64,000 bases of DNA. Origin: Planctomycetota bacterium. GTDB lineage: Bacteria > Planctomycetota > UBA8108 > UBA1146. A program made the translations under genes and the position numbers. Numbering within the stretch: the first letter of the stretch is position 1; each line of letters opens with the position of its first letter. Positions 9,093 to 38,545 of the stretch are shown piece after piece. The notes under the pieces are model-generated. The model made no database searches, was not told where the DNA came from, and saw nothing but the letters and a program-made list of their open reading frames with translations. Where the stretch lies: the NCBI GenBank assembly GCA_002711105.1, contig PAIH01000044.1:33658-97657 (forward strand), given 5' to 3'.

Positions 9093-12000
9093 TTACGGAC
9101 ATCCTCCATAAGTTTCGCAATCAAGACCATCCCCAGGAGTCATGTCGATTCCGCAGGTAATCGGTCCCGGAGCCGGTGGAGGGCCACCGTTCTGGAACTG
9201 GTAGTTCAGCACATAGATGATATCCGATATGTCATGCAAGCCATCGTCATTGGCATCTATTGCATCCGTGCAACCCGATGCAGGACCGCCAAGCATGAGG
9301 CTGTAAAGCATGAAGATCGCATCTGCAATATCCACACTTCCGTCGTCATTAGCATCACCACGGCGGAAACTCGGCTCACACTCATCCGGTAATCCATTTG
9401 CATTGGTATCAAGGCTCTCGCCACTTAGCAGATCACATGCATCTGGTACACCGTTATCATTGCAATCGGGACTAGTGCCGGTAGAAACGTCGCACACATC
9501 TGGTGTCCCGTTCTCGTCACAGTCGGGATCACACTCGTCAGGCGTTCCGTTCCCATCACAATCGGCAGAGGAACCTTCTGCGATATCACAGACATCTGGA
9601 TTTCCATTGCCGTTACAGTCATCTTGCGGAACAACAATCGTCACCGTCTGTTCGACAACCGTCGTGTTACCGTGATTATCAGTAGCGGTCCACTGTAGAA
9701 TCGTACTTCCATGATCATAGGTACCGCTCGCATCGTCCGTTCCATTGAGATCGTTGTATAGATCCACTACCACGCAGTTGTCGCTGGCATTCGGAGTCGG
9801 AATATTGAGTGTTGCAGTACAAGTACCCTCTGGAGCAGGAATCGTCAGATTTCCACTTGTCGTGATGGTCGGGGATTCATTATCAGAAACCGAAACCAGG
9901 AACTGAGCTGAAACTACGTTTCCGTTCGCATCTGACTGCGAGTAACTCACCGTAGTTGTTCCTACCGGGAAGAACTCGCCAGGCTGATGGCTGGTTATCA
10001 GTTCGCCAAGATCGCAGTTATCGGTGGCAGTTGGCGGATTCCAGTTAACACTAGCGCCACACACACCTGGATCGGTCAGCTGTGACAAATCACCCGGTAT
10101 ACCTTCAAGAACTGGATCTTCACTGTCAATTACAGTCACGATGAAGGTGTGCTGACTGAGGTTTCCATGCGCATCAGACAAGGACATGGTCACAAATGTA
10201 GTTCCGACGTTGAAGAATTCTCCTGGCTCATGGCTTGTTGTCAGGTTTGTCGTTCCACAGTTATCACTGACCTGTGCCGGTTCCCAAGTTGCGGTGGCAC
10301 CACAATCTCCAAGTCCTGACGCCATCGTCATACTTTCTGGCGCCAGGTCGAAGCTTGGTGCCTGATCATCACTCACGGTTATCGTGAACGAAGCTGTGGT
10401 CTCATTTCTTGAATCATCTGTAACGGTATAAGATACCGTAGTTGTACCAACAGGGAAAAACTCACCGGCTGAATGGGTGCTGGTAGTGCTGCTGGCTGGG
10501 CAGTTGTCTGCACTTGACGGCTCGGGCCAGCTAACTGTTGCCCCACACAAATCTGGCTCACTGGTAATCGAAATATCATCTGGCATGCCAAACAACTGAG
10601 GTGCTTCCATGTCAGTGACAGAAATCGAGAACTGGTGGCTTGCAGAGTTACCGTTAATATCTTGCAACGTCATCGTGACGACCGTCGTGCCAACGGGGAA
10701 CTGCATGCCAGACGGATAATCAGATCCGAGAGAAAGCACACCGCAGTTGTCACTGGTCTGCGGTGCATCCCAGACTGCGGTAGCAACACATTGTGCCGCA
10801 TTTGTATCGAGCTCCATGTCTCCAGGACTGGTAACAAAGCTAGGGGCTTCATCATCTGAGATGGAAATCTCAAAGGAACTGCTGACTGTAAGACCGTTTA
10901 TATCGGTGGCTGTGTACGTCACCGTTGTGTTACCCACCGAGAAGAAACTTCCTGACGGGTGACTGGTGAAGAGACTTGGACTCGGGCAGTTATCAGTGGT
11001 AGTGGGCGCGGTCCATTCGATGACCGCTCCACAAGCACCTGAATCGGCAGTCTGAGTGACCGAGGCAGGCATATCGTGAATCTGGGGTGCCTGCTCGTCT
11101 GTCACCGTAATACCAAATTCGTGGACCGTCGCCTGACCGTGAATGTCGGCTACAGTCATCGACACCGTGGTAGTTCCCAGCTGGAAGAAATCTCCCGACT
11201 GATGGCTGGAAGTCAGAGATTGAACCGCGCAGTTATCAGAAGTAACTGGGGCCTCCCAGCTCGCCGTTGAACCACACAGATCAGGATCAGTCCCTAGCTG
11301 CTGTGATTGCGGAGAGCTTTCAAACAACGGCGCTTCGTCATCTGTCACGGTAATCGTGAAGGAACCCAGTACTGTATTGTCGCTGGTATCTTCTACTGTG
11401 TATGTGACAAGAGTTTCTCCGACATCAAAGAAATCTCCTGGTTGATGGGTGCTGCTCAGGAGCTCTCCAGCGCAATTGTCTGTAGTAGTCGGAGGCGACC
11501 ACGTTACGCCAGCTCCACAAAGTCCAAGATCAGCAGTCTGGTTAATTCTTCCAGGCATATTGACCAGCTGTGGATTCTCGACGTCACTTACCGTCACGGA
11601 AAATGTATGGGTCGTGACGTTGTTATGGACGTCAGTCAAAGTCAACAGAACATCAGTTGTGCCTGTCGAGAAGAAATCGCCACTATTGTGTGACGTCTCG
11701 ATGGAAAGAACTCCACAGTTATCACTTGTGTTAGGTGCTTCCCAGCTAGCCTGGGCTCCGCACTGACCAGGATCTGAACCCATGGCCATACTTTCAGGAG
11801 CAGTGAGAAACTCTGGGTTTTGATCGTCAAGGACCGTTACCGTGAATGAATCTGCAGTCGTATGACCACTCAGATCTGTACTCGTGTAGGTAACAGTAGT
11901 ATCGCCCATTGCCAACAAGCTACCGCTGGCAATATCTGATCCGAAGGAAGTGACTCCGCAGTTGTCTGCTGAAGTGGGCTCCTCCCAGGTTGCAGTTGCT

Positions 12001-14399: not shown

Positions 14400-14830
14400 G
14401 GGAATCCCACCCACTCCCTTTCCGATCGGAGATCCGATCCAGGGGCAATGCCGAATATTCGGCAAAATCCTTCGATAATCGAAAGCGATAACCCCGTACC
14501 CATTTCATTGCTGAGGAGCGAACTGACATAAATAGTCTGTGAAAGGTCGAAATAGCGGCCTTTCCACCAGGATCTGACGATCCACACCTCTAGTGATAAT
14601 CATCACATTTTCAAACTCTTTGCTTTTATACAGGTATGGGCATGTTAACAAAAGCAGAAAAACACCAGATCAACTAACCAAAGAGATATTTATAGTCTTT
14701 TTAGCTATGGGGTTATAGAAAATGCACTGAGAATTAAAAGCCGAATGTATTCAACATAAATAAAGTAACAAAGATAGACAGATCGCTAACATACGAGGTA
14801 ATACTCTGAGAAATAGGGGTAAACAAAACT

Positions 14831-14872
14831 GAGGCGTCGGATCCTGCTACACGAGCAGAACCTCGACGCCTC
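14831..14872 (-). terminator. Terminator hairpin downstream of P2
   Basis: gaggcgtcg (14831-14839) pairs with cgacgcctc (14864-14872), with an inner ctgct/agcag stem. On the minus strand it is followed by AGUUUUGUUU. Confidence 0.65.
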
Positions 14873-14885
14873 TCAAGCCCCAAGA

Positions 14886-17800
14886 TTATGGGCAAGCGTT
14901 GTAGAGCGCGCACCCCAGGCCATCAGAATCGGTCGGATCCACTCCACAACTATCGAAAGGTGGTGGAGGTGGACTCGTACCGTTGAACTGGAAACCGAGG
15001 ATGCTGATCACGTCAGAAACGTCGACAGTGCCATCGTCATTGGCATCTGCTGCGTCGTCGCAACTAGGATCGAGTCCTCCAGCAAAGAGGTTCACCAACA
15101 AGAAGACACCATCTGCAATGTTGACGATGCCATCGCCATTGCCATCACCTCTATAGAAGTTTACCTGACAAGAATCGGGGATTCCGTCACCATCGAGATC
15201 AGTGGCGGCTCCGCTCACCAAATCACATGCATCCGGGATTCCATTACTGTTGCAATCGTCAGCGATACCCTCAGAAATCTCGCACAAATCTGGAATGCTA
15301 TTCACATTGCAATCAGACAGTGTCCCATCAAGAAGATCGCAACTGTCTGGCACTTCGTTCTCATTACAATCATTGGCAACACCAGTAGAGATCTCGCAAC
15401 TATCTGGAACACCTGTACCGTTACAATCTTGCTCGACACCCAGATCGATTTCACAGCTGTCAATATCACCATCAAGATCACAATCAGCCCATGTGCCAGA
15501 AGCGATATCACAGGAGTCGGGAACACCATTCAAGTTGCAATCATTGGCAGTTCCAGTGAAGACTTCGCAGCTATCTGGCACTCCAGTGCCATCGCAATCA
15601 TCCTCTAGCCCGCTGGCAAGGTCGCAAGCGTCTGGGATTCCGTTGTTATTGCAATCAGCCACTTGGCCGTTACCAACGTCGCAGTTGTCAGGCACACCGT
15701 TTCCGTCACAATCGGAAGTACCATTACTGATGTCACAGGAATCGGGAATACCGTTGCTGTTGCAATCCGGAACGGCACCGGTTGAAACCTCGCAACTATC
15801 AGGAACCCCTGAGCTATTGCAATCTTCAGCGACACCATCTATCAAATCGCACGAATCTGGAATCCCGTTGCTATTGCAGTCAGGAGCAGCACCACTGGAA
15901 ATCTCACAGCTATCCGGCACTCCATTGGCGTCGCAATCAGAAGCAGTACCAGCTTCCAAATCACAGACATCGAGTGTTCCGTTAGCGTTGCAATCAGAAG
16001 AAACACCTGTCGCCAGGTCACATGTATCAAGTACCTGATTCTGGTTACAGTCAGTGTCCTGTCCTGTTGCGAGATCGCAATCGTCGAGGATCCCGTTAGA
16101 GTTACAATCCACTTCAGTGCCTGAAATCAACTCACAGGAATCAATGACTCCATCCAAATCGCAGTCTGTCGCACTACCTGCCGAAATCTGGCAGCTATCG
16201 ACAAACCCATCGAAATCGCAATCCAGTTCAACTCCTGATTCGATATCACAGCTATCAGGCTGGCCATTAGCATTGCAATCGAGGACTACCCCGGCGGATA
16301 TCTCACAAGAATCTGGAATTCCGCTCAGGTCGCAGTCTGTTTCAGTGCCCGAGGCAATTTCGCAACCGTCTAAGATTCCATCGCTGTCACAGTCCGCCTC
16401 TGTTCCATTGTTGATTTCGCAACTATCCGGCAGACCATCTTCATCGCAGTCAAGAGAACTACCTTGTTCGATTTCGCAATCGTTAGGTATCCCATCTCCG
16501 TCGCAATCTGGCTGACACTCATCAGGCACACCGTCCAAATTACAATCGAGACTGTTGCCTTCGACGATGTCGCAGACGTCAGGATTGTTATTGTTATTGC
16601 AGTCTGGAGAATCAATCAGAACGGTAACGATTCCAGCTGTGAATGACAAATTCCCGTTGGTATCGGTTGCAGTCCAGTTGATTAACGTATTTCCGCGAGG
16701 GTAGAAACCGGAAGCATTCGCAGTACCGTTGAAGTCATTTACGACTGTCACCTCTCCGCATGCATCAGTTGTTTCCAGTTCTGGAACCTCTACTAAAGCA
16801 CCGCATTCTCCCGCTGGAGCAGTTACAGTTAATGGCAGGGGTGGTGTGATCGTTGCACTTTCATCATCAATAACTGTGACATTGAAAGATTCGGACACAC
16901 TGTTTCCACTGATATCTATAGCAACGTATGTAACGAGAGTGGTTCCTACAGTGAAGAAGGATCCGGAATCATGACTCGACTCAAAACTTGCCAAACCACA
17001 ACCATCTATGCCTGTGGGTTCAAGCCAAGTAATACTCGCACCACAAATCCCAGCTTGTGTCGTGTAGGTAAGATCTGTCGGCAATCCCACTATCTGAGGA
17101 TCTTCATCATCTAGCACTGTAATTTGGAAAGAAGACGTGACTTGATTATCTGAACTGTCAGTGGCCACCACAATGACTGTTGTAGTTCCCACTCCATATT
17201 CCATTCCGGAATAGAAACTTGTCACAAGCTGGGCAACTTCACAATTGTCTGTAGCAGTTGGGAATTCCCAGTTCACTGCAGCAGCGCAATGTCCCGGGGG
17301 TGCAGTGACGATTTGATCCTCGGGTATTGAGGTGATGATCGGAAGTTCTGTATCCAGAACCGTGACCACGAAGCCAGAGGTCGTATCATTCCCAGAAGTA
17401 TCAGATGCGGTGTAGACGACTTCAGTAGCTCCTGCAGGGAAGAACTCACCCGAGCTGTGAGTTGAACTGAATGTAACCGTACCACAGGCATCCTCGATGG
17501 TCGGATCTTCCCAGGTCACCACGGCTCCACATTGGGAACTCGTGTTGTCGAGCTCGATGAAAGCTGGCAAACCGGAGATCTCCGGACCTTGAACATCAGC
17601 TACGTCGATATCGAATGAGTAAACGGCTTCGTTACCTGAGGTATCCGATACCAGATAGCTCACAGTGGTTACACCTACCGGGAAGAAATCTCCACTAGAG
17701 TGTGTTTGTGTAACTTCAGCTACTTCACAGTTATCGATGGATTCAGGTGCTCCCCATGTTGCAACAGCACCGCATTGGTCTTGAGCAGAACCAATTTCTA

Positions 17801-20800
17801 TTATCGACGGCAATCCGTGTAGAACTGGAGGCTCAAGATCCTCGACGGTCACCTGGAACGAACTATCAAAAGTGTTCCCGTGAGTATCGGTGGCGATATA
17901 GGTAACTGTCGTGCTTCCAAGGACAAAGAAACTGCTATTCTCGACATCTGATGTCAGGTTACCAACACCACAGTTGTCTGTAGCAGATGGTGAAATCCAC
18001 GAAACGTCTGTCCCGCAACTACCAGGATCATTGGAAACTACCATGTCAGCAGGCATTCCACTGATCTGAGGCGGCTCTTGATCACTAACCGTCACCATGA
18101 AAGCAACGGTTGTTATTAAATCGGCAGTGTCAGAAGCACTGTATGTGACAACAGTGTCTCCAATCGGGAACACGTCGCCAGGAACATGTGTAGACATGGT
18201 ATTGAAAACCGCACAGTTGTCAGTAAATGTAGGCAGTTCCCAGTCAACGATTGCAGTGCATTCGCCGATGTCCGTATTTGCCTCGATTATTTGAGGAAGA
18301 CCATCAATCTGGGGAACTTCTGTATCCAGTACGGTAACACTGAAAGTAACTTCAGCTGTATTTCCACTGGAATCAGTAGCTATGTAGGTGATCGAAGTTA
18401 CTCCGACCTCGAACAAATCTCCTGAAAGGTAGTTTGAATCCAAAATTTCCACTGTGCAGTTATCAGAAGCCACGGGTTCTTCCCACGAAACCAGAGCACC
18501 GCAAACGGACAGGTCATTTTCGACCGTGATGTCCAGGGGTGTCGAAGTTACAAGAGGAACTTCTGCATCCGTAACAGTTATGAAGAAGCTATGCGTGGAG
18601 ATATTACCGCTCAAGTCAGTAGCCAGTGTAGCCACTTCGGTGACTCCGACCGGGAACCGATCTCCACTGACATGGGTACTTTCGATCGATTCAACTCCAC
18701 AGTTATCAGTAGCAGATATCTCACTCCAGTCGACCGCGGCATCGCAAAGTCCAGCTTCACTGATCACCTGAATATCCGTCGGCGGGGCGATGAACTCGGG
18801 GAATTCAGAATCAACAACCGTCACATCGAAACCGGTGATTAAGATATTCCCGTTCACATCTATCGCGGTGTAAGTCACGGTAGTTACACCTGGGGTCATG
18901 AAAGTTCCGGAGGAGAAATCAGAGGTCAGGGATTCTACTCCGCAGTTGTCTACTGCAAATGGAAGATTCCATGTGACTAGCGACCCACAAATTCCTGGAT
19001 TGGTAACCGCGCCGAAATCAGTTGGTAGACCTATGATCGTCGGAATCTGTATGTCGGTCACCGTGACCAAGAAATCGAACTCTATCATATTCCCTGATGC
19101 ATCGATTGCCACCAAAGACACCACGGTATCACCAGAGGGGAAAACATCTCCGCTTGTATGGGTACTTGTGAAAGAAATCAATTCGCAATTGTCTTCTGCT
19201 AAAGGTGCATCCCATTCGGCGACCGCTGTGCACTCGTTGTTGGCCGTGTTCACAAGAACTCTATCAGGAATGTTCGAGATCACGGGCAACTCATCATCGA
19301 TCACTGTCACGGTGAATTCTGCAGTGTTCACAAGCCCTGCAGTATCTTCCGTTGTGTAGGTAACAGTAGTATTGCCGAGTTCAAACACATGCCCGGTCTG
19401 AATATCAGAACCGAGGCTCACGATCGAGCAGTTATCGGTAGCAGAAGGCTCTGGCCATTCAAATCCAGCAGAGCAAGTCCCTGGGAATATCGAGAGGACC
19501 ACGTCGACAGGCATGTCGTGAATCACTGGCACTTCTTCGTCCAGCACATCAACGGTGAAACTTGCCGTAGTGACATGACCTGCATTATCAGTAGCGGTGT
19601 ATGTAACCGTCGTCGATCCAACGATTAAGAAATCTCCAGGCTGCTGGGTACTTTCCACCGTAGAAATCTGACAATTATCGGTGACCGTTGGGGGTATCCA
19701 ATCGAATGTGGACCCACACTGTCCCGCTTGCGCAGAGAGCGAGACGTCAGCTGGCATATCAGCGATGGTCGGTGCTTCTGTATCCGTGACTGTTACTACG
19801 AATGAACTACTCGTCGAATTACCACTTGGATCCCCAACTGTGTAGGTCACCACGGTATTACCGACTTCAAACAATGTGCCACTCTGGATATCCGAGGAAA
19901 GCCCAACAATCTGACAGTTGTCAGCGGCTGTCGGCTCGACCCAATTGATGAGTGCTCCACAAACTCCTTCATCAGATTCTGTCGATATATTCTCCGGTAG
20001 ACCCAGAATCGAAGGGGCCTCATTATCGACGACAATCACGTTGAAGGTACTTATCGAGGTGTTTTCATTCACATCAGTAACGGTGATTTCGACCGTCGTG
20101 GTTCCTAGCTCAAAAAGATCACCAGGTTGGTGACTTGAGCTGTGCTCGAACACTCCGCAGTTATCACTGGATTCCTCTGAAACCCAGTTCACAACCGCAC
20201 TGCACAATCCAGGATCCGTATCGATCTGTATGTCGGCAGATACGCCAGAGATTTCTGGAAGTTCGTCATCGATCACGGTAACGACAAACTGCTGTTCGGT
20301 GATGTTTCCGGCCAGATCCTGAGCAGTGAATACCACTGTGGTTTCGCCGACAGGGAACAGATCGCCGGTGGTGTGAGTCTGTTGGAATACATCGACTTCG
20401 CAGTTATCAGTAACTTCAGGAGCGGACCATTCATGTGCTGCACCACAAACGCCTGAATCAGTCGAAAGTGTGACGTCTACTGGTACTGCATTGATCACTG
20501 GCTGTTCGTCATCCTCGACGAGGATCGTGAAACTAGCGCCAGTTTCATTCTCTGCCGTATCGATTGCTGTGTAGCTGACCGTTGTACTGCCGACATTGAA
20601 GAAGTCACCAGGCTGATGAGTACTCAATATCTGATCAACGGTGCAGTTATCGGTGATGGTTGGTGGTGTCCAATCAAAAGTGGACCCACATACACCTGAC
20701 TCGACGTTGAGCACAACATCGGAAGGCATATCAGAAATCACCGGAGCTTCATCTTCAGAAACGAAGATAAGGAAAGAATCCGAATGAGAATTGCCACTGG

Positions 20801-29666: not shown

Positions 29667-29760
29667 CGCACCTCCAAGATGGAGCACACTTCAGTTATCT
29701 AGTCAGACGAACTTCTTCACTCAAATGTTCTGAAGTCGGCATTGGGCTTTTACTTACTTG

Positions 29761-29792
29761 TCTCTGGCACCCAGCTTCCTGGGCGCCGGAGA
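29761..29792 (-). terminator. Imperfect 14-bp hairpin between P3 and P2 (weak terminator or attenuator)
   Basis: tctctggcacccag-cttc-ctgggcgccggaga, with one wobble, one mismatch and no clear U tract. Confidence 0.3.
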
Positions 29793-29809
29793 CTTAACGG
29801 GTCAATTAG

Positions 29810-32800
29810 TTAGGGACAGATGGAGTAAGAATCGCAACCGATGCTTACACCGTCCGGGTCGAGTCCACAGAAGCCGTAAGGATCTGCAGGTGGCGCACTA
29901 GCCAAGAACAGGTGCTGCAGTAGGTAAATTACATCACTGATGTCTAGACTCTCGTCATCATTGCAGTCTCCGGTGTCGAGGCAGCTCAGTTCTGGACCGA
30001 TTCCGACAACGTACTCAAGGATGTAAATCGGATCGGTAAGGTCTACGTTTCCAGTGCCATTTGCATCTCCACGTCGGAAAGGCTGCTCGCACTCATCTGG
30101 CGTGCCATTACTGTTCGTATCTGCGCTTCCTCCGGAGGTGATGTCACAATCGTCCGGAGTGCCATTGCCATTGCAATCGGCTTCGCATTCATCAGGTATT
30201 CCATTCATGTTGCAATCGTTAGCTGCACCACTGGCAATCTCACAAATGTCTGGCTGGCCATTCTCATTGCAATCGGTCTCGTCAACGACGACCGTCACAG
30301 ATTGCGTTGTAGTGGCTTCATTTCCGTAAACATCAGTAACGATCCAGGTAATGACAGTCGTACCAAGATCGTATGTGCCAGAGGCATCTGAAGTACCTGT
30401 GTAATCATTGGTCACCGAACCAACTTGACAGTTATCTGCCGTTGCAGGTGCCGGAATATCAAGCTCGGAATTACACGTTTCTGAGGTAGCCACGACCGTG
30501 ATATCCCCGGAGCTCTCAATTGTTGGATCTTCTTCGTCAAGTACAGTGACATTGAAAGAGCTGGTGACACTATTTCCGGAAGCATCCGTCACTGTTATCT
30601 GCACTTCCGTACTGCCAACCTCGAACGAATCTCCAGAGTCATGAGTCAAATCTAGACTCTCTCCGGGACAGTTGTCTTCGGAGCTAGGCGCAAGCCATTC
30701 GACCGAAGCAGCACACTGACCAGGATCATTGTTTGTGGTGATGTTCGCTGGAACAGCAAGGATCTGTGGAAGCTCAGAGTCCTGAACGGAAATTGTAAAG
30801 CCACCAACGGCTTTGTTTCCGTACTGATCAACCGCAGTAATTGTTACAGTAGTCGTTCCAATCGGGAATGCAGATCCTGAGGAATGACTACTCTGCAAAT
30901 CGACAGTATCGCAATTGTCCTGTGCACTCGGCAAAGCCCAATCGACCGTTGCTTCGCACTGTCCCTGATCATTCGAAACTGAAACATTTTCCGGAATGTT
31001 GAGTAACTCTGGATCCTCATTGTCCATAACAGTTACTTCGAAGGAAGCGATCGTACGATTCCCCGCAGTGTCAGTTGCTGCGAAAGTTACCGGAGTGGTT
31101 CCTACAGGGAAGTAAGTTCCTGGTACGTGGGTTTCCTCGAAGACCAAGATCGCACAATTGTCTGTGGAGGTAGCTTGCTGCCATGTAACTAAGGCACCGC
31201 AAACTCCAGGATCGTTGGACACGGTGATGTTAGCGGGCACATCCAGGATTACTGGATATTCTTCATCCACCACGACAACGGTGAAACTACCGCTTGTATC
31301 GTTACCGTGGATATCGACGCTGGTGTACGTCACGTCTGTCGATCCAACTGCGAAGGTGTCGCCAGGAAGATGGGTAGACGTCATTTCAGAAACACCACAG
31401 TTATCAGTCGACGTCGGATCATCCCAGAGAGCAGTAGCCGAACAGAAGCCAAGTTCTGAACTGTACATGAGATCGCCAGGTAGATCGTGAATCATCGGGT
31501 TTTCTGCGTCAGTGATTGTGATTGTGAAGGATTCCGTGGCCAAGTTTCCATGGATGTCGGTCGTGGTCAGGGTCACTTCTGTGGTACCAACTGCGAAGAA
31601 ACCTCCGCTGCTGTGAGTTGTTTCCGTCGACTGGATGCCGCAGTTGTCAATAGTTGTCGGCTCAGTCCATGTCACGATCGCACCGCAATGACTTTCATCG
31701 TTTTGTTGATCCATATCAGCAGGCGTGCCGATGATTTGAGGAAGTTCTTGATCTTCAACCGTGACGATGAAGCTATCGCTGTGTGAGTTTCCATGGATGT
31801 CGGTCGCTGTGTACGTCACGACTGTCTCACCGACTGGAAGGGCTGTACCACTTGCAACAGTGGATATAAGTGTGTCCACTGCACAGTTGTCACTTGTAAG
31901 TGGATCGTCCCAGTTGGCAATTCCCTCGCAAAGACCAGGCTCTGTCGGAATCGTGATTCGTTCCGGCAAATCGATGATCTGTGGAGCTTCTACATCCGTA
32001 ACAGTGACGGAGAACGCAACGGTCGTCGTATTACCGTACAGATCAGCGGTGCTGTAGCTCACATCCGTGGTCCCAACCGGGAAAGAATCTCCTGGCTGAT
32101 GTGTAGCAGTACTGTCCTGAATACCACAATTATCGGTGATTGCAGGGTCGTCCCACATTGCTGTCGCTGTACAGACACCAGGCTCCGTGTTGTACGTGAG
32201 CCCATCCGGAAGACCAGCGATGACTGGATTTTCAGTATCTTCGATCGTCACCACGAAAGCCGCCGAGGTGGTGTTTCCGTGTATATCTGTAGCAATCAAC
32301 ATCACCGCAGTGGTTCCTACATCAAAGAAATCTCCACTGGAATGACTCATTTCGAATGTGTCGATCCCGCAGTTATCTTCAGCTGAAGGTGCTGCCCACG
32401 TTGTGATGGCGCCACATTCTCCAGCATCATTTTGTGAAGTTACATCAGCTGGAATATCGAGTATCTGTGGCGATTCTTGATCAACAACTTCAATGATGAA
32501 CAGCTCTGTTGTCTGGTTATCGTGAATATCCGTAGCGGTAACAGTGACAGTTGTCTCACCTACGGGGAATTGAACTCCTGAGCTATGGCTCAAAGTAATG
32601 CTAGAAACTGCGCAGTTATCCGTTGCTATCGGATCATCCCAAGAAACTGACGCGCTACAGAGTCCTGATTCACTGGAAGAGGTGACGCGCTCCGGAAGAT
32701 CTACAAACACTGGGTTCTCATCATCTGTGATAGTGATGAGGAAGTTATCTGAGGTAACATTTCCATGAATGTCGCTCGTAGTGTAAGTAACCAGGGTCTC

Positions 32801-35800
32801 TCCAACCGGGAAACTCTGTCCTGATTGATGATCCGATTCCAGGCTTTCGATTTCACAGTTGTCCGTACTCGTTACCGTATCCCAGTTGACGACAGCAGAA
32901 CAAAGTCCTGCTTCTGCAGTCATTTCCATGTCTGAAGGCATGCCTACCAGGATTGGTGCTTCGTCATCAGTGATGGTCACCTTGAATTTATCAGCAACCA
33001 CGTTTCCATGACTATCCATAGCCGTGTAGATCACATCGCTGCTACCAACAGGGAAGAAATCGCCAGGCTGATGACTCGAATCTAGTGTGACTTCAATACA
33101 GTTGTCCGATGCTGTCGGCTCAGTCCATGTAACTGAAGCACCACATAAGCCAGACTCTGCTGTAGCAGTGAAATCGAGGGGCATTCCCGCGATTTCAGGA
33201 TCTTGGTCGTCATCAACGGTGACCAAGAAACTAGCAGTTTGAACATTCTCGTGAACATCCGTTGCGGTCAGAGTGACTTCGGTGGTTCCAACCTCGAAGA
33301 AGTCGCCACTGGCATGGCTGCTCGTGAAAGTCAAAATCGCACAGTTATCAGAAGCATCGGGCTCAACCCAGGTAACACTCGCGCCGCATTCGTCCAAATC
33401 GTTCGAATTGGCACTGTCCGCAGGCACATTAGTGATCTGAGGAACTTCTTGATCTTCTACGGTAACAATGAAGGCCTGGCTGGTGGTGTTGCCATGAATA
33501 TCGGTCACGGTGTAAACCACATCCGTGTCACCGACAGGAAGCATCGAACCACTTTCGACGCTCACCTCTAGCATCGCCACACCGCAGTTATCAGAAGTAT
33601 CTGGATCTTCCCATGAGGTAGTTCCTTCACAAATCCCGGGTTCCGTTGGGATCGTGATTCGCTCGGGAAGATTGATGATCAGAGGATCTTCAACATCTGT
33701 GACTGTTACTAACATGACATCCTCGGTCGTATTTCCGTGGATATCGGTCAGTGTGATCGTCACCTCGGTAGTACCAACGTCGAAGTAGGTATCTGGATCA
33801 TGGCTGGACAAGAGACTTTGGACTCCACAGTTATCTTCGCCTGTAGGCGCAGTCCAAGTCGCAAGAGCAGAGCAAAGACCAGCCTCCGAGCCCAATTGAA
33901 TGTCTTCTGGCATTCCAATAATGGCTGGAGCCTGTGTATCCGTAACAACAACATTGAAAGTACTTGTCGTGATGTTGAAGTGATTGTCGGTTGCAGTAAG
34001 TGTTACTTGTGTAGTTCCGACCGGGAAAACATCTCCGGAGTCGTGAGTAGATTCAAAACTAAGAACACCACAATTATCCGTAGCACTTGGAGGATCCCAG
34101 GTCGCAGCTGCGGTGCAAAGTCCGAGCTCCGCATCAATCTCAACTATTGCCGGAGCATCCAAAATCTCCGCCATTTCATTATCCAGCACAGTCACAACGA
34201 ATGAATGAGTTGCGATGTTTCCGTAGATATCCATGGCAGTGTAAGTCACTTCAGTCGGACCAACTGGGAACACGGTACCTGGCAAGTGAGTGGTACCAAG
34301 GCTCATTATCTGACAGTTGTCCGCAGGAATTGGGGTATCCCAATTTGTGACTGCGGAACAAAGCCCAGGATCGTTGGGAAGACTAATCTCGTCAGGAGCC
34401 TCAACAAATGTCGGAGCTTCCTCGTCAACAATCGTCACTGTCAAAACAGCAGTGTTTTGATTGTTGTGAATATCTGTTGCTGTGTAAGTCACAAGGGTAT
34501 CGCCGACACTGAATATCCACCCTGACTCATGTGAAGAAGTCAGCTCAGAAATACCGCAATTATCTGCAGCAGTTGGAGATTCCCAGGTCGCAATTCCATC
34601 ACAGCTTCCCTCACTATTGGTGAAGGAAACCGACGCAACTAATCCGGAGATAGTCGGAATCTCATCGTCTTCGATGGTGACAAAGAAACTCGCGGTTGAT
34701 TGCAATCCAGAATCATCAGTTGCGGTGTAAGTAACTTCGGTCATTCCCACGGGGAAAATATCACCAGGAGCATGATCAGGTTCAAGAGAGCTAACAATAC
34801 AGTTATCACTTGCAGTCGGGGCTTCCCAGGTAGCTGCAGCGCCGCATTGGCCTGTCTCGTTACTCATCACAATGTCAGCTGGCATATCTGAAATGACCGG
34901 GTGCTCAATATCGTCGATCGTGACGATGAATGAGTCCTTGGTGACATTGTTGTTCACATCCGTCAGGGTGTAGGTAACCGTGGTCATTCCAACTTGGAAT
35001 GTTGATCCCGGTTCGTTTGTCGTTTCGAGTGAAGCGATTCCACAGTTGTCATCGAAGACAGGATCTGCCCAAGCTACCGTGGCTCCACAAACCCCAGGTA
35101 GACTGTCAGTGGAAATATCCGCTGGTAATCCAGAAAGAGTCGGGGCCTGATCATCTACGACAGTGACGCTGAATGATTCCAGTGCGATGTTGCCGTAGAT
35201 ATCAGTAGCAGTGTATGTAACCACAGTAGTTCCGACGGGATAGTCGGTTTGAGGCTGGTGATTAGCCACCAGAGTAGCTGCCTCACAATTATCGCTAGCA
35301 TCAGGAAGTTCCCAATCGACATTGGCAGTGCACAGTCCCGGCTCGGCAGTAACCGAAATGTCTTCTGGCATCCTGGCAATCGATGGAGCTTCCGAATCAA
35401 GAACCTCGACATTGAAAGCGAAATCCAGGACATTCCCATTGCCATCATCGACACTCAAGGTGACGTTGGTAACACCGATATCGAAGAGGTGTCCAGACGA
35501 ATGGCTTATCGTGACAAGCAGGCTATCGCAATTATCACTGGCTTCTGGAGCCATCCACTCGTAAACCGCTCCGCATACTCCAGTGTCATTATCGATAATC
35601 ACAGAAGAAGGAACACCTGTGACTACAGGATCTTCGTCATCGATAACAGTCATCTCGAATGAAGATTCGCTTTGGTTGCCCTGTGCATCCGTTGCGGTGT
35701 ATGTAACAAGTGTTACACCAACGGGGAATGCATCACCCGGGTTAAGATTTGAAGACACAGTCGATCCGGGGCAATTATCTTCAATTGTCGGAGCTGCCCA

Positions 35801-38545
35801 AGAAACAAGAGCTGTGCAACCTCCTGGGTTCGTATTTACGATTACCGTTCCAGGTAAACCCTGAATCGTCGGTAAATCGACATCATTAACGACAACATCG
35901 AAAGCATGAGTGGTGATGTTTCCACTAGAGTCTTCTGCGACATATGTAACCTGAGTAGTTCCAACAGGAAAACTAGAGCCGGAAGCAATAGTTGGTTGGA
36001 AGTTAGTTACATCGCAGTTGTCATCCGAAGTGGGCTCAGACCAAGTAACGACGGCCTGGCACTCACCTGGTATGTTATCGACTTGCGTATTTTCAGGTGC
36101 AGAGCCAATGGTTGGGAATTGATCATCGACGACTGTGACATCAAAAGTATGTCCCGTAACATTGCCGCTCACATCTGTGACCACGTATGAAACTGGAGTG
36201 CTTCCTACTGGAAATGAATCTCCGGATTCATGCGTTGTGACAATGGAGCCAACACCGCAATCATCTGAAATTGTTGGCTCATCCCAAGAAACAACAGTTT
36301 CGCACAATCCCATTTCTGCAGGAATCGAAATGGATTCTGGAAGTCCGTCGATCGTCGGCGGACTAAGATCGGTATCCACTTCGCAAACATCAGGAACCAG
36401 GTTTTCGTCGCAATCGACCGCACCTTCAGCAACGTCACACTCATCAGGGTTCTGATTCAAATCGCAATCACCACTGGAATTGCTCGCGATGTCACAACTA
36501 TCGATGACACCGTTGGAGTTACAGTCTGGTTGTGAACCACTACTAAGTTCGCACTCATCAGGAATCAGATTCCCATTACAGTCCGGCGAAGTTCCGAAAG
36601 CGATGTCGCAAATATCCGGGACCGAATTGCTATTACAATCTTCGGAGGTTCCTTCATCTAGTTCACAAAGATCGATATTTCCATTCGAGTTGCAATCTTC
36701 TGCAACTCCTAAAAGGATTTCGCAAACATCTAGAACCAGATTTGTATTGCAGTCGAGAGCAACGCCAGTACCAATATCGCAACTATCAGGAATCGCATTC
36801 ACATTGCAATCAACCGCGAATCCGAAAGCGATATCACACTGGTCAAGGATGCCGTTAGCATTGCAATCGAAAGCCAGTCCGTCTGTAATTTCGCAGCCGT
36901 CTTCCACTCCGTTGAAATTGCAATCGTTTTCGCAATCATCCGGAATCGCATTGGCGTTACAGTCTGGCGAAGCACCAGAAGCAATGTCGCATGAATCGAC
37001 TACTCCGTTTGAATTGCAATCTGGCTCGGAGCCGTCATCCAATTGGCACTGGTCGGGAATTCCATCCTGATTACAGTCGGAAACTTCGCCACTGTCGATC
37101 TGGCAAGAATCTAGCACTCCATCCAAATTGCAATCGAGTTCTGTTCCCTGGAAAATATCGCAGGGGTCATCGACTCCATTTAGATTACAGTCTTCAAGAT
37201 CTATTCGGCGATCTGCAACAGCAAATTCAGAGGTTAATGACACACCGCAACACCACCGCCCAGCAGCTGCAACCGTGGAACCAAATTTGTTACCACTGAC
37301 CAAAACTGATGGAAACCAACTTTCTGAGTCATATCCACCTGACGAATTCTTTTCGTAGATGAAGATTGCACCGGTGTTACCGTTTGCCTTCCACGCTCCT
37401 GCGACCATGTAGGTAGTTGTGATCGCAACATCAATTCCAAGTTGTGCGTTTTGTAACCCTTGTGACAACTTTCCAGATTGCGTGTATACGAAAGAAGTTC
37501 TTTCGAAGTGATAGGCTGCCCCATCTGCACTGTCTGCAATCGGAGCACCGACCAGCAGGTGGCTATCCGACAGATCAATCGCACTTCCAAACTCGGAGCC
37601 TGACTGTGGATCTTGCGCTGTCAATTTCTGAGTGAAAATCCAACTTGTCGGCGAGACGCTCGTGTAAAGGTAAACGGCACCAACTTGATCCAAGAAACCA
37701 AGATCAGCTTCTTCATCACCGACTGCGATGAAATCGCCATCTATGGCAACACTTCCACCGAATCGTTTCGCTGAATTAGGATCGTTGGATTGAATGATTT
37801 GATCTTCAGTCCAAGTATTTCCATCGAAACTGAAGATGTATGCGGCACCCGAATCGGAATTTGAAAGTGCTGCCCAGGCACCTATGACCGCTCGCTCTTC
37901 AGATATACCAACAGAGATTCCAAATTCGTCATTATCTGTTCCATTAGACGCTTGGATCTTTTGCTCAAAGTTCCAGCTGGATCCATCGTGCCGGTATATG
38001 TAAGCAGCACCGACGCTGCCTTGTGCTGCTCCACCATCAAGTCCCGGAGCTCCTACGATCAAAAGGTTTCCACTCAAAGATACGGTTTGACCGAATTCTG
38101 CGCCGTCGTCTGGGTCTGGAGCTATCAAGATGGCATCCTCAACCCAACGACTGCCGATGTTTCTGTAAAGGTGAACGGCTCCCGCATCGAGACCGGAGTA
38201 CTGCGACTCCGGTGCACCGAGAGCTAACCAATTCCCAGACATTTCTGCAGATTGACCAAACTGATCAGATGCCAAGACTGGAGTTAGAACATCTTCCAAG
38301 TCAGCCTCACATGCATCTAGAACAGAATCTTGATTGCAATCGAGAGAAGGATCTTGTGCGATCTGGCATTCGTCTGGAATCCCATCTCCGTCACAATCGT
38401 CACTTGAGTTTTCTGCGATATCACAACTGTCTGCAGATCCATTGGCATTACAGTCCACGGTGGGCTCGCATTGAGCGTCAACCTTGGAACTGAATCCAAT
38501 CGCCACACACAGAATGACCAGGAAGGCGAGGGGCAACGACTTCAT
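29810..38545 (-). CDS. Giant secreted modular protein P3 (2911 aa): DCN repeats, FG-GAP propeller, ~14 DCN repeats, ~24 HYR domains, DCN repeats, dockerin-like C-terminal module
   Basis: One uninterrupted ORF. ATG start with GGAGG 9 nt upstream. Signal peptide 'MKSLPLAFLVILCVAIGFSSKVDAQ'. Confidence 0.9.
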   Translation of the reverse strand: MKSLPLAFLVILCVAIGFSSKVDAQCEPTVDCNANGSADSCDIAENSSDDCDGDGIPDECQIAQDPSLDCNQDSVLDACEADLEDVLTPVLASDQFGQSAEMSGNWLALGAPESQYSGLDAGAVHLYRNIGSRWVEDAILIAPDPDDGAEFGQTVSLSGNLLIVGAPGLDGGAAQGSVGAAYIYRHDGSSWNFEQKIQASNGTDNDEFGISVGISEERAVIGAWAALSNSDSGAAYIFSFDGNTWTEDQIIQSNDPNSAKRFGGSVAIDGDFIAVGDEEADLGFLDQVGAVYLYTSVSPTSWIFTQKLTAQDPQSGSEFGSAIDLSDSHLLVGAPIADSADGAAYHFERTSFVYTQSGKLSQGLQNAQLGIDVAITTTYMVAGAWKANGNTGAIFIYEKNSSGGYDSESWFPSVLVSGNKFGSTVAAAGRWCCGVSLTSEFAVADRRIDLEDCNLNGVDDPCDIFQGTELDCNLDGVLDSCQIDSGEVSDCNQDGIPDQCQLDDGSEPDCNSNGVVDSCDIASGASPDCNANAIPDDCENDCNFNGVEDGCEITDGLAFDCNANGILDQCDIAFGFAVDCNVNAIPDSCDIGTGVALDCNTNLVLDVCEILLGVAEDCNSNGNIDLCELDEGTSEDCNSNSVPDICDIAFGTSPDCNGNLIPDECELSSGSQPDCNSNGVIDSCDIASNSSGDCDLNQNPDECDVAEGAVDCDENLVPDVCEVDTDLSPPTIDGLPESISIPAEMGLCETVVSWDEPTISDDCGVGSIVTTHESGDSFPVGSTPVSYVVTDVSGNVTGHTFDVTVVDDQFPTIGSAPENTQVDNIPGECQAVVTWSEPTSDDNCDVTNFQPTIASGSSFPVGTTQVTYVAEDSSGNITTHAFDVVVNDVDLPTIQGLPGTVIVNTNPGGCTALVSWAAPTIEDNCPGSTVSSNLNPGDAFPVGVTLVTYTATDAQGNQSESSFEMTVIDDEDPVVTGVPSSVIIDNDTGVCGAVYEWMAPEASDNCDSLLVTISHSSGHLFDIGVTNVTLSVDDGNGNVLDFAFNVEVLDSEAPSIARMPEDISVTAEPGLCTANVDWELPDASDNCEAATLVANHQPQTDYPVGTTVVTYTATDIYGNIALESFSVTVVDDQAPTLSGLPADISTDSLPGVCGATVAWADPVFDDNCGIASLETTNEPGSTFQVGMTTVTYTLTDVNNNVTKDSFIVTIDDIEHPVISDMPADIVMSNETGQCGAAATWEAPTASDNCIVSSLEPDHAPGDIFPVGMTEVTYTATDDSGLQSTASFFVTIEDDEIPTISGLVASVSFTNSEGSCDGIATWESPTAADNCGISELTSSHESGWIFSVGDTLVTYTATDIHNNQNTAVLTVTIVDEEAPTFVEAPDEISLPNDPGLCSAVTNWDTPIPADNCQIMSLGTTHLPGTVFPVGPTEVTYTAMDIYGNIATHSFVVTVLDNEMAEILDAPAIVEIDAELGLCTAAATWDPPSATDNCGVLSFESTHDSGDVFPVGTTQVTLTATDNHFNITTSTFNVVVTDTQAPAIIGMPEDIQLGSEAGLCSALATWTAPTGEDNCGVQSLLSSHDPDTYFDVGTTEVTITLTDIHGNTTEDVMLVTVTDVEDPLIINLPERITIPTEPGICEGTTSWEDPDTSDNCGVAMLEVSVESGSMLPVGDTDVVYTVTDIHGNTTSQAFIVTVEDQEVPQITNVPADSANSNDLDECGASVTWVEPDASDNCAILTFTSSHASGDFFEVGTTEVTLTATDVHENVQTASFLVTVDDDQDPEIAGMPLDFTATAESGLCGASVTWTEPTASDNCIEVTLDSSHQPGDFFPVGSSDVIYTAMDSHGNVVADKFKVTITDDEAPILVGMPSDMEMTAEAGLCSAVVNWDTVTSTDNCEIESLESDHQSGQSFPVGETLVTYTTSDIHGNVTSDNFLITITDDENPVFVDLPERVTSSSESGLCSASVSWDDPIATDNCAVSSITLSHSSGVQFPVGETTVTVTATDIHDNQTTELFIIEVVDQESPQILDIPADVTSQNDAGECGAITTWAAPSAEDNCGIDTFEMSHSSGDFFDVGTTAVMLIATDIHGNTTSAAFVVTIEDTENPVIAGLPDGLTYNTEPGVCTATAMWDDPAITDNCGIQDSTATHQPGDSFPVGTTDVSYSTADLYGNTTTVAFSVTVTDVEAPQIIDLPERITIPTEPGLCEGIANWDDPLTSDNCAVDTLISTVASGTALPVGETVVTYTATDIHGNSHSDSFIVTVEDQELPQIIGTPADMDQQNDESHCGAIVTWTEPTTIDNCGIQSTETTHSSGGFFAVGTTEVTLTTTDIHGNLATESFTITITDAENPMIHDLPGDLMYSSELGFCSATALWDDPTSTDNCGVSEMTSTHLPGDTFAVGSTDVTYTSVDIHGNDTSGSFTVVVVDEEYPVILDVPANITVSNDPGVCGALVTWQQATSTDNCAILVFEETHVPGTYFPVGTTPVTFAATDTAGNRTIASFEVTVMDNEDPELLNIPENVSVSNDQGQCEATVDWALPSAQDNCDTVDLQSSHSSGSAFPIGTTTVTITAVDQYGNKAVGGFTISVQDSELPQILAVPANITTNNDPGQCAASVEWLAPSSEDNCPGESLDLTHDSGDSFEVGSTEVQITVTDASGNSVTSSFNVTVLDEEDPTIESSGDITVVATSETCNSELDIPAPATADNCQVGSVTNDYTGTSDASGTYDLGTTVITWIVTDVYGNEATTTQSVTVVVDETDCNENGQPDICEIASGAANDCNMNGIPDECEADCNGNGTPDDCDITSGGSADTNSNGTPDECEQPFRRGDANGTGNVDLTDPIYILEYVVGIGPELSCLDTGDCNDDESLDISDVIYLLQHLFLASAPPADPYGFCGLDPDGVSIGCDSYSICP
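29813..30085 (-). other. Dockerin-like C-terminal module of P3, ending in ...CDSYSICP
   Basis: 'GDANGTGNVDLTD' and 'DCNDDESLDISD' loops, then 'CGLDPDGVSIGC'. Confidence 0.65.
30290..36375 (-). repeat. HYR domain array of P3, ~24 units
   Basis: Same consensus as P1 and P2. The count is array length divided by the period. Confidence 0.8.
36375..37200 (-). repeat. DCN repeat array of P3
   Basis: 'DCNLNGVDDPCD...DCNLDGVLDSCQ...DCNQDGIPDQCQ...' and further units. Confidence 0.8.
37200..38299 (-). other. FG-GAP-like beta-propeller of P3
   Basis: 'QFGQSAEMSGNWLALGAPES...GAVHLY', 'EFGQTVSLSGNLLIVGAPG' and further blades. Confidence 0.7.

What the first reader, a model, noticed from the sequence alone, without database searches (positions are those of the whole stretch)
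9093..38545. Three tandem giant paralogues built on one modular blueprint occupy 29 kb of one strand and encode about 80 HYR domains
Seen in sequence: three consecutive minus-strand ORFs of ~1768, ~4926 and 2911 aa. Each has its own RBS, a signal peptide ending in 'AQ', and a downstream hairpin. All three repeat the same module order: DCN repeats, a 7-blade FG-GAP propeller, DCN repeats, an HYR array (~11, ~45 and ~24 units), DCN repeats, and a dockerin-like C-terminal module. A fourth member (60713 to beyond 64000) adds at least 12 more HYR units.
Established knowledge: HYR domains are Ig-like adhesion modules first described in sea-urchin hyalin. FG-GAP repeats form the integrin-alpha ligand-binding propeller.
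Inference: these are extended, calcium-stiffened surface fibres or adhesins of different lengths displaying the same propeller head. If each Ig-like unit spans a few nm, P2 would exceed 100 nm. The length series of 11, 24 and 45 units suggests a ruler-like or alternately expressed set. No dedicated secretion genes (T1SS, T5SS, T9SS, sortase, PEP-CTERM/exosortase) occur anywhere in the window, so export and anchoring are unexplained.
Basis: partly seen in the sequence, partly recalled or inferred. Interest (0 to 1): 0.78.

Follow-up and report, generated by a model that had tools for sequence, protein, structure and literature searches.

The report
Giant dockerin-tailed HYR surface fibres
A marine planctomycete encodes four very long, adhesin-like fibre proteins that each end in a dockerin "plug", and a nearby gene encodes a small protein with two matching cohesin "sockets", so how the fibres are tethered becomes testable; giant genes like these are common in this phylum.

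Summary
Three adjacent minus-strand genes encode proteins of 1768, 4926 and 2911 aa. All three have the same order: Sec signal peptide, 3 "DCN" repeats, a 7-blade integrin-alpha-like propeller, DCN repeats, 11/47/25 back-to-back 81-aa HYR units, DCN repeats, and a roughly 93-aa C-terminal dockerin. They are old paralogues: heads are 29-33% identical and HYR units average 39%. Proteins in the same 90% clusters with the same lengths (4926, 2911 aa) come from 10 or more other ENA contigs, so assembly artefact is unlikely. The source is an uncultured marine Planctomycetota MAG (GenBank MAW77716/7, "hypothetical protein").

- The tail has a dockerin fold. It is a phylum-wide extreme-C-terminal module, with at least 546 genomic loci on very diverse secreted proteins.
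- ORF 55259-56509 in the window encodes signal peptide + two cohesin-like domains + dockerin, a plausible docking partner. Anchoring is therefore not wholly unexplained.
- The fourth member is 2306 aa with 22 HYR units and follows the blueprint only partly.

The 19-aa DCN repeat matches no Pfam or NCBIfam model but occurs in about 9000 protein clusters.

Verdict: these are ordinary giant adhesin-like genes for this phylum, fitting the published "planctosome" cohesin/dockerin hypothesis. Interest is moderate.

The parts
9093..14399 (-). P1, 1768 aa. Signal peptide 14331-14399; 3 DCN repeats 14175-14324; 7-blade propeller about 13035-14150; 13 DCN 12333-13022; 11 HYR units 9639-12323; 5 DCN 9375-9620; dockerin tail 9096-9374.
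14886..29666 (-). P2, 4926 aa. Signal peptide 29589-29666; 3 DCN 29427-29573; propeller about 28317-29408; 4-5 DCN 28050-28313; 47 HYR units 16623-28046; 26 DCN 15162-16604; dockerin tail 14889-15161.
29810..38545 (-). P3, 2911 aa. Signal peptide 38474-38545; 3 DCN 38306-38455; propeller about 37202-38275; 15 DCN 36371-37192; 25 HYR units 30293-36376; 4 DCN 30086-30274; dockerin tail 29813-30085.
60713..64000 (-). P4, the C-terminal 1095 aa of a 2306-aa protein that runs off the window. In the window: 12 full HYR units, one partial unit and the dockerin tail. The full protein has a signal peptide, a degenerate propeller remnant, 4 DCN repeats, 22 HYR units and the dockerin tail.
55259..56509 (-). 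Candidate docking partner, 416 aa. Signal peptide 56432-56509; cohesin-like domain 1 55982-56431; cohesin domain 2 55532-55981; variant dockerin tail ending GCDGDADDI 55262-55531.
9034..9067 (-). GC-rich hairpin 26 nt after the P1 stop codon.
   Evidence: read directly
14831..14872 (-). Hairpin followed by a T-run after the P2 stop codon (terminator-like). A roughly 430-nt AT-rich spacer follows before P1.
   Evidence: read directly
29760..29793 (-). Imperfect hairpin after the P3 stop codon, with no T-run.
   Evidence: read directly

Best explanation
These are four anciently diverged paralogous genes for Sec-exported, disulfide- and probably calcium-stabilised giant surface fibres of an uncultured marine planctomycete.

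Each fibre has three functional parts:
- An N-terminal integrin-alpha-like 7-blade propeller, probably the ligand-binding tip.
- A rigid stalk of 11, 47, 25 or 22 head-to-tail HYR (Ig-like) domains. In P1-P3 the stalk is flanked on both sides by spacers of 19-aa Cys-stapled, EF-hand-loop-like 'DCN' repeats; P4 has only one block of four, before the stalk.
- A C-terminal dockerin.

The dockerin tethers the fibre non-covalently to cohesin-bearing proteins at the cell surface. The nearest candidate is the two-cohesin, one-dockerin protein encoded at 55259-56509. That protein could bind two fibres and plug its own variant dockerin into a further anchor. This is cellulosome logic used for adhesion or substrate capture, as in the 'planctosome' hypothesis.

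Shown here: the gene structures, the domain identities, the predicted folds, the extreme-C-terminal and phylum-wide use of the tail, and the cohesin homology of the neighbouring gene.

Inferred: surface location, calcium binding, propeller-outward orientation, and which cohesin binds which dockerin.
For: Architecture and domains.

Propeller: 7 blades, and the best PDB matches are integrin alpha.

Tail:
- Confidently predicted, and the 32 best PDB matches are all dockerins.
- Dockerin_1 scores are just under threshold for the window proteins.
- At least 546 tblastn-confirmed genomic loci, nearly all in Planctomycetota MAGs, often several per genome.
- In 80 loci the module almost always ends the ORF, 83-107 aa before the stop and usually '...CP*'.
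- It sits on unrelated passenger domains: P-domain (proprotein convertase), PKD, FG-GAP, HYR, haem peroxidase, multicopper oxidase, Kelch, Ig.

Cohesin partner (ORF 55259-56509):
- 14 of 18 family members hit Pfam Cohesin (best 5.9e-8) and 15 of 18 hit Dockerin_1.
- The family profile hits PDB cohesins (5lxv_A at 3.2e-4, 3l8q_A at 6e-3) and a dockerin (2y3n_B at 2.7e-6).
- Its two beta domains are homologous to each other (hhalign probability 98.3%, E = 1.7e-14).
- It is the only cohesin-like ORF in the window and one of exactly five dockerin-tailed ORFs there.
- Relatives of its N-terminal domains lie within 6 kb of dockerin tails in 14 of 80 unrelated loci.

Other support:
- Sec signal peptides.
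- Conserved HYR unit number in orthologues.
- Literature: giant adhesion-type genes are typical of Planctomycetes (PMC5177795). A cohesin/dockerin/HYR/TSP3 'planctosome' has been proposed for freshwater planctomycetes (PMC6461901).
Against: - No binding was tested, and no complex prediction could be run.
- The window's own cohesin and dockerin sequences score below Pfam's gathering thresholds (14.6 against 24.1 bits; 17-21 against 22.9).
- The cohesin gene's position near P4 lies inside a block of conserved synteny with housekeeping genes (hemL, GGT, PEPCK). It persists in a relative where no HYR gene lies between DUF7133 and the cohesins. Adjacency is therefore weak evidence of functional linkage.
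- No final membrane or cell-wall anchor was identified.
- The route across the outer membrane is unknown.
- There are no expression data.
- Calcium binding by the DCN repeats rests on a motif only. Profile comparison with dockerin was not significant.
Confidence: 0.55

Rival explanations
1. The dockerin-like tail is not a cohesin binder. It is a lineage-specific sorting or secretion tag, or a module that binds a non-protein surface component such as polysaccharide, peptidoglycan or outer-membrane lipid. On this reading the neighbouring cohesin-like gene is unrelated.
For: - The module has an obligate extreme-C-terminal position with a conserved '...C-P-stop' end, on hundreds of unrelated secreted proteins. 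This resembles sorting domains such as the T9SS CTD.
- It carries four conserved cysteines and a Pro-rich extension that classical dockerins lack.
- The cohesin gene's adjacency can be explained by conserved synteny alone.
Against: - The fold matches dockerins specifically.
- Cohesin-domain proteins do exist in the same genomes, often next to dockerin-tailed genes.
- No dedicated processing or secretion genes co-occur in the window.
Confidence: 0.22
2. The proteins are not cell-to-surface adhesins. They are scaffold or substrate-capture arms of an extracellular multi-enzyme complex (a 'planctosome'). Dockerin-tailed proteases and oxidases from elsewhere in the genome assemble with them on cohesin scaffolds.
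For: - The same tail is found on P-domain (proprotein convertase) proteins, haem peroxidases and multicopper oxidases.
- The published model uses HYR, TSP3-like repeats, cohesin and dockerin in this way (PMC6461901).
Against: - The giants themselves carry no catalytic domain and no cohesin, so they are cargo rather than scaffold.
- An N-terminal integrin-like propeller on a long stalk is the typical layout of an adhesin.
Confidence: 0.15
3. The arrays are assembly chimeras, repeat expansions or dead genes.
For: The source is a short-read metagenome-assembled genome. In one related MAG the P3 homologue is split into 1498 + 1410 aa.
Against: - Proteins in the same 90% clusters and of the same lengths come from at least 10 other ENA contigs.
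- Units are only about 39% identical in protein and 60-75% in DNA, and there are no tandem DNA repeats.
- The reading frames of up to 14.8 kb are uninterrupted.
- Orthologues at about 50% identity keep the same unit number.
Confidence: 0.02

Closest known systems
'Planctosome' hypothesis: non-cellulosomal cohesin/dockerin proteins of freshwater Planctomycetes (Andrei et al. 2019, ISME J, PMC6461901)
   Same: Same phylum and the same toolkit: signal peptide, dockerin, cohesin, HYR, Ca-binding TSP3-like repeats, and P-domain proteins that carry the same kind of tail. An adaptor protein with both cohesin and dockerin is present.
   Different: - In the published model HYR is a single substrate-binding domain in an adaptor, and the cargo is peptidases. 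Here the dockerin-bearing cargo is four giant fibres with 11-47 HYR units and a propeller head.
- The adaptor here has two cohesins and no HYR.
- This is a marine pelagic lineage.
- No LTD-type anchor protein was found in the window.
- Both models are purely computational.
Clostridial and ruminococcal cellulosome type I cohesin-dockerin pairs (e.g. PDB 1ohz, 4fl4, 5lxv)
   Same: The predicted tail superposes on dockerins (TM 0.7-0.82). It has two EF-hand-like loops, each followed by a helix. The family profile of the neighbouring gene product matches solved cohesins. The scaffoldin logic (several cohesins plus one dockerin) is the same.
   Different: - There are no glycoside hydrolases or CBMs.
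- The tail has a roughly 30-aa Cys- and Pro-containing extension and four conserved cysteines.
- Sequence scores are below Pfam thresholds for the window copies.
- The organism is a diderm planctomycete rather than a Gram-positive.
- Binding is untested.
Giant repetitive Ca2+-rigidified adhesins of Gram-negative bacteria (RTX adhesins such as Marinomonas MpIBP, Salmonella SiiE, Pseudomonas LapA; from my own knowledge)
   Same: Very long rods of tandem Ig-like domains, probably Ca2+-dependent, with a ligand-binding region at the distal end.
   Different: - Those adhesins are exported C-terminus-first by a T1SS, with RTX repeats and an N-terminal retention module.
- These proteins instead have N-terminal Sec signal peptides, no RTX repeats and no adjacent T1SS genes. 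The head is N-terminal and the proposed anchor C-terminal.
Integrin alpha-subunit head and sea-urchin hyalin (eukaryotic FG-GAP and HYR prototypes)
   Same: A 7-blade FG-GAP propeller fold (Foldseek E = 6e-18) and the HYR Ig-like repeat with its conserved Cys pair.
   Different: There is no beta-subunit partner, no thigh or calf domains and no transmembrane segment. Identity to integrins is only 14-19%. The resemblance is at the level of domains, not of the whole system.
Planctomycetal 'giant genes' (Reva & Tummler 2008; Kohn et al. 2016, PMC5177795)
   Same: Genes larger than 5 kb that encode predicted adhesion or carbohydrate-binding surface proteins are present in every planctomycete genome examined. 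The three genes here (5.3, 14.8 and 8.7 kb) fit that class.
   Different: Those surveys did not resolve this particular blueprint, the dockerin tail family or the DCN repeat.

Membership tests
HYR domain (Pfam PF02494) | Match to the HYR profile above the gathering score; an ~81-aa Ig-like unit with a conserved Cys pair. | tested here: met
   Scores are 385-1548 bits against a cut-off of 21.7, with 10/46/24/12 stretches. There are 11/47/25/22 contiguous 81-aa units whose consensus includes ...G.CgA.v.W..Pta.DNC....
FG-GAP / integrin-alpha-type beta-propeller | Seven FG-GAP blades that close into a propeller. | tested here: met
   FG-GAP_2 scores are 107-171 bits against a cut-off of 23 in P1-P3. 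The model has pLDDT 90.6 and 28 strands, i.e. 7 x 4. The 50 matches listed (best by E-value) are all integrin alpha heads. P4 has only a degenerate remnant.
Dockerin type I (Pfam PF00404) | Sequence match above the gathering score. | tested here: not met
   The four tails score 17.2-21.2 bits against a cut-off of 22.9, with E = 3e-4 to 6e-3. NCBIfam dockerin_GC gives 14-16 bits against a cut-off of 29. Only 2 of 78 related tails reach E <= 1e-5 for Dockerin_1.
Dockerin type I (Pfam PF00404) | Dockerin fold: duplicated EF-hand-like Ca loop plus helix. | tested here: met
   The model has pLDDT 90-98 over the last ~95 residues, with helices 99-110 and 132-143. Foldseek ranks 1-32 are all dockerins, with target-normalised TM 0.38-0.82 (about 0.7-0.8 for single-dockerin chains) and rmsd mostly 1.6-3 A. 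The loops D-x-N-x-D-G...D are conserved.
Dockerin type I (Pfam PF00404) | Ca2+-dependent binding to a cohesin. | not testable with these tools
   This needs binding assays or complex prediction.
Cohesin (Pfam PF00963), for ORF 55259-56509 | Sequence match to the cohesin profile. | tested here: inconclusive
   The window protein alone scores E = 0.038, 14.6 bits against a cut-off of 24.1. However, 14 of 18 family members match (best 5.9e-8). The family profile hits solved cohesins 5lxv_A (3.2e-4) and 3l8q_A (6e-3). Domain 1 is homologous to domain 2. No structure model was made.
Thrombospondin type 3 / bacterial TSP3 repeats, for the DCN repeats | Match to TSP_3 or TSP3_bac. | tested here: not met
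   The best result is TSP3_bac at E = 0.29, 11.5 bits against a cut-off of 25. NCBIfam gives no hit. No TSP3 hit appears in 10 other DCN-rich proteins. There is no PDB sequence hit. Only the D-x-N-x-N-G-x-x-D-x-x-[DE] motif is shared.
Cellulosome | Dockerin-borne glycoside hydrolases plus a CBM-bearing scaffoldin. | tested here: not met
   No GH or CBM family was found in the giants, in the cohesin protein or among the window ORFs. Passenger domains of the tail family are mostly non-cellulolytic.
T1SS RTX adhesins / T5SS autotransporters / T9SS cargo / sortase or exosortase substrates | RTX repeats with a C-terminal T1SS signal; a beta-barrel translocator; a T9SS CTD; LPXTG or PEP-CTERM with a transmembrane helix. 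| tested here: not met
   No such Pfam or NCBIfam family appears in the four proteins. The only 'T9SS_sortase' and OmpL47 hits score 20-65 bits against cut-offs of 250-420 for the full-length models and fall on Ig-like repeats. The tail has no hydrophobic helix. N-terminal Sec signal peptides are present instead.

The most novel reading that the evidence does not exclude
The ~93-aa Cys-containing dockerin tail is the general surface-display tag of Planctomycetota. The two-cohesin, one-dockerin protein at 55259-56509 is the adaptor that loads giant HYR fibres onto the cell, or chains them together through its own dockerin. In addition, the 19-aa DCN unit would be a large uncurated family of disulfide-stapled, EF-hand-like Ca2+ rod repeats, present in about 9000 protein clusters. 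Together these would give a molecular identity to planctomycete surface fibres and a first testable 'planctosome' in an abundant pelagic marine lineage.
Probability: 0.3. Interest if true: 0.6.

Novelty: new member of a known kind. Interest (0 to 1): 0.4.

Why it matters
Planctomycetes are known for giant genes and for surface fibres of unknown composition. The cohesin/dockerin 'planctosome' idea has never been tested.

This locus offers a compact, reproducibly assembled test case. It has four dockerin-tailed fibres of fixed, conserved lengths and a two-cohesin adaptor 4 kb from one of them. Simple binding experiments with roughly 90-150-aa modules could confirm or kill the tethering model.

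The work also flags two widespread modules that current domain libraries do not capture well:
- The Cys-containing C-terminal dockerin, with at least 546 loci.
- The DCN repeat, in about 9000 clusters.

Beyond that, the finding is a well-built example of a known class rather than a new kind of system.

Tried and rejected
- **Assembly collapse or recent expansion.** Tandem Repeats Finder found no DNA tandem repeat in 9000-38600, and the direct-repeat search showed only 60-80% copies. Rejected.
- **NCBIfam scan of the giants.** It gave only far-sub-threshold OmpL47, T9SS-sortase and LapB hits on Ig-like repeats. Not meaningful.
- **Pfam 'CpeS' hit in P2.** E = 7e-11 but no individual stretch passes. 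Taken to be an artefact of summing weak scores over the repeats.
- **DCN repeat identity.** There is no Pfam, NCBIfam or PDB sequence match. hhalign of DCN triplets against the dockerin alignment aligned only the 9-residue loop (E = 0.076, probability 0.7%), so homology to dockerin or EF-hand is not shown. In the tail model the DCN part had low confidence, pLDDT 45-61. In the head model it reached 83-94, with one short helix per repeat.
- **Phase-variation or 'alternate expression' signals.** The three upstream regions have no convincing inverted repeats or slippage tracts.
- **Promoter and terminator consensus scan around P1.** Counts were not above the shuffled expectation. The hairpins were read by eye instead.
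- **Retrieval of P4.** The first look-up of the DUF7133 neighbour failed because of the start codon chosen. It succeeded with the GTG at 60539.
- **Cohesin-gene synteny.** It is conserved, but so is the whole housekeeping block, so I did not count it as evidence of functional linkage.
Full report
**1. The observation**

The window holds three consecutive minus-strand ORFs at 9093-14465, 14886-29687 and 29810-38545. Each has an ATG preceded by a GGAGG-type ribosome-binding site. Using that ATG gives products of 1768, 4926 and 2911 aa. Public gene calls use the same products.

Each protein begins with a typical Sec signal peptide, ending ...LEAQ...LTAQ and ...VDAQ. Each gene is followed by a hairpin:
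- 9034-9067.
- 14831-14872, followed by a T-run.
- 29760-29793, imperfect.

A roughly 430-nt AT-rich spacer separates P2 from P1.

**2. Domains**

*HYR.* Pfam HYR is matched far above threshold, with 10, 46 and 24 stretches. An HMM built from the units themselves resolves 11, 47 and 25 strictly contiguous 81-aa units with no linkers.

*Propeller.* FG-GAP_2 is above threshold in all three proteins. An AlphaFold model of the P3 head has mean pLDDT 90.6 and pTM 0.86, with 28 strands arranged as 7 blades of 4. Its best PDB matches are exclusively integrin alpha-subunit propellers, E down to 6e-18.

*DCN repeat.* This is a 19-aa unit with consensus D-C-N-x-N-G-[IV]-P-D-x-C-[DE]-[IL]-x-x-G-x-x-x.
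- It occurs in three blocks per protein: 3+13+5, 3+4+26 and 3+15+4 units.
- Positions 1, 3, 5, 6, 9 and 12 follow the EF-hand/dockerin Ca-loop pattern. Cysteines at positions 2 and 11 could staple the loop. Both points are inference.
- No Pfam, NCBIfam or PDB sequence match exists.
- A profile comparison with dockerin is not significant.
- An array of these repeats finds 8991 representative protein clusters at E <= 1e-3 and 1627 at E <= 1e-30, mostly proteins of 800-5500 aa. The repeat is therefore widespread but not captured by either library.

**3. The tail**

The last ~93 residues of P1-P4 align well, with 28 invariant positions including four cysteines and a terminal C-P.
- They score just below Pfam's Dockerin_1 cut-off.
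- The module is predicted with pLDDT 90-98. The 32 best PDB matches are all dockerins, with target-normalised TM about 0.7-0.82 for single-dockerin chains.
- A genome scan found at least 546 confirmed copies, almost all in Planctomycetota MAGs and often several per genome.
- In the 80 loci retrieved, the module nearly always ends the ORF, 83-107 aa before the stop.
- It is fused to unrelated passengers: P-domain proteins, PKD, FG-GAP, HYR, haem peroxidase, multicopper oxidase, Kelch and Ig.

This is the behaviour of a general display or anchoring module.

**4. A partner in the window**

ORF 55259-56509 on the minus strand (416 aa) has a signal peptide, two beta domains and a variant of the same tail that ends GCDGDADDI.
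- In its family, 14 of 18 members hit Pfam Cohesin (best 5.9e-8) and 15 of 18 hit Dockerin_1.
- The family profile matches solved cohesins (5lxv_A at 3.2e-4, 3l8q_A at 6e-3) over the second domain, and a dockerin (2y3n_B at 2.7e-6) over the tail.
- The first domain is homologous to the second (hhalign probability 98.3%).
- It is the only cohesin-like ORF in the window. The window has exactly five dockerin-tailed ORFs: P1-P4 and this one.
- Relatives of its N-terminal domains occur within 6 kb of dockerin tails in 14 of 80 other loci.

Its position (P4, then DUF7133, then the cohesin gene, then hemL) is conserved in relatives. The surrounding housekeeping block is conserved too, and one relative lacks the HYR gene there. 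Adjacency is therefore weak evidence.

**5. The fourth member**

Other assemblies supplied the full P4: 2306 aa with a signal peptide ending ...SAQ, a degenerate propeller remnant, 4 DCN repeats, 22 HYR units and the tail. It has no N-terminal and no C-side DCN block. Immediately upstream lie an RND pump and an OEP gene. These form an efflux pair, not a T1SS.

**6. Age and reliability**

- Heads are 29-33% identical.
- The 95 HYR units average 39% identity. The only recent event is a three-unit block duplication in P2.
- There is no DNA tandem repeat.
- Each gene's 90% cluster holds proteins of the same length (4926 and 2911 aa) from at least 10 other ENA contigs; the exact sequences are GenBank MAW77716.1 and MAW77717.1, annotated 'hypothetical protein', Planctomycetota MAG, on a 205,872-nt contig.
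- In a related MAG the P1 orthologue (51% identity) keeps the full blueprint with 11 HYR units. It is preceded by a P2-like tail, so the tandem arrangement is conserved.
- P4 orthologues are 2306, 2317 and 2346 aa.

Stalk length therefore looks to be under selection. Nothing suggests switching between paralogues.

**7. Context**

The flanking genes are housekeeping: a hem operon, hemL, PEPCK, GGT, a Mo-oxidoreductase, a HAD hydrolase, a patatin and GT2. No secretion-system genes were found among them.

**8. Mechanism**

The best-supported reading is as follows.
- The proteins are exported through Sec.
- They fold into disulfide- and Ca2+-stabilised rods. The HYR stalks would measure roughly 45, 190, 100 and 90 nm if each Ig-like unit spans about 4 nm. 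This is an inference from general knowledge.
- The propeller sits at the free N-terminal end.
- Tethering occurs through the C-terminal dockerin to cohesin-bearing proteins such as the adaptor.

The domain and fold assignments are shown. Surface location, orientation, Ca2+ binding and the pairing of specific dockerins with specific cohesins are inferred.

The main rival is that the tail is a sorting tag or binds something other than a cohesin.

**9. Comparison and novelty**

Giant adhesion-type genes are the rule in Planctomycetes (PMC5177795). A cohesin/dockerin/HYR/TSP3-repeat 'planctosome' has already been hypothesised for freshwater members (PMC6461901).

This locus is a new, unusually clean member of that kind, from a marine pelagic lineage. 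Its added value is a concrete dockerin-cohesin pairing that can be tested, plus two poorly catalogued modules. It is not a new type of system.

Noticed in passing
window 55259-56509 (-): A secreted 416-aa protein with two cohesin-like domains and a variant dockerin tail (ending GCDGDADDI). It lies outside the coordinates of the finding. About 17 homologues of 410-434 aa were found in Planctomycetota metagenomes.
   Followed up: yes
window 39206-45796 (-) and 53725-55188 (+): A haem biosynthesis cluster: amine-oxidase-type hemY-like, hemE, hemB, hemD, hemC and hemA, with hemL on the opposite strand. It lies directly upstream of P3 and shows that the giants sit in a housekeeping chromosomal context.
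   Followed up: partly
window 57264-60539 (-): A DUF7133-HEAT-cytochrome c protein (1091 aa) between P4 and the cohesin gene. It holds this position in related MAGs. Its likely start is the GTG at 60539 behind a GGAGG, not the GTG at 60578.
   Followed up: partly
DCN repeat blocks, e.g. window 12333-13022 and 15162-16604: The 19-aa D-C-N-x-N-G-x-P-D-x-C-[DE] repeat has no Pfam, NCBIfam or PDB match. It is nevertheless found in 8991 representative protein clusters (1627 at E <= 1e-30), on proteins that also carry P-domain (proprotein convertase), FG-GAP, NIDO or DUF642 domains.
   Followed up: partly
tails of P1-P4 (e.g. window 9096-9374) and 78 related loci: An R-G-D tripeptide is invariant at the start of the first Ca loop of the dockerin tail in all 78 related proteins aligned. 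It is probably structural (the D is the first loop ligand) rather than an integrin-type cell-attachment motif.
   Followed up: no
window 22903-23202 vs 23629-23928 (P2 units 16-18 vs 19-21); P4 units 6-7: The only recent event in the arrays is a three-unit block duplication: 62-85% aa identity, and 80% DNA identity over 300 nt. These units lack the usual DNC motif (they have TDC instead). Their closest relatives outside P2 are two P4 units (62-67%), hinting at exchange between paralogues.
   Followed up: partly
L081 1-2478 (just beyond the window's right end): An RND transporter (ACR_tran) and an outer-membrane efflux protein (OEP) gene lie immediately upstream of P4. They look like an efflux pair, not a T1SS, but this is the only outer-membrane channel gene near the giants.
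   Followed up: no
window 50691-52058 (-): A 455-aa ORF with no Pfam or NCBIfam match. It is conserved at the same syntenic position (424-447 aa) in three related MAG lineages.
   Followed up: no
L088 412-16635 (MAG XB_MAG50): Five consecutive genes of 426-623 aa with no Pfam hits are followed by a distant relative of the window's cohesin-like protein (its match covers only the first cohesin-like domain; Pfam sees just a faint dockerin) and by a 1683-aa Big_5/FG-GAP_3/dockerin protein. At least two of the five unannotated genes are homologous to the N-terminal domains of the window's cohesin protein. This may be a larger cohesin/dockerin gene cluster.
   Followed up: partly
window 14001-38000: G+C content is 47-51% across the giant genes, against 52-57% in the flanks. 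This may reflect the Thr/Ser/Asp/Asn-rich composition rather than foreign origin, given the conserved synteny.
   Followed up: no
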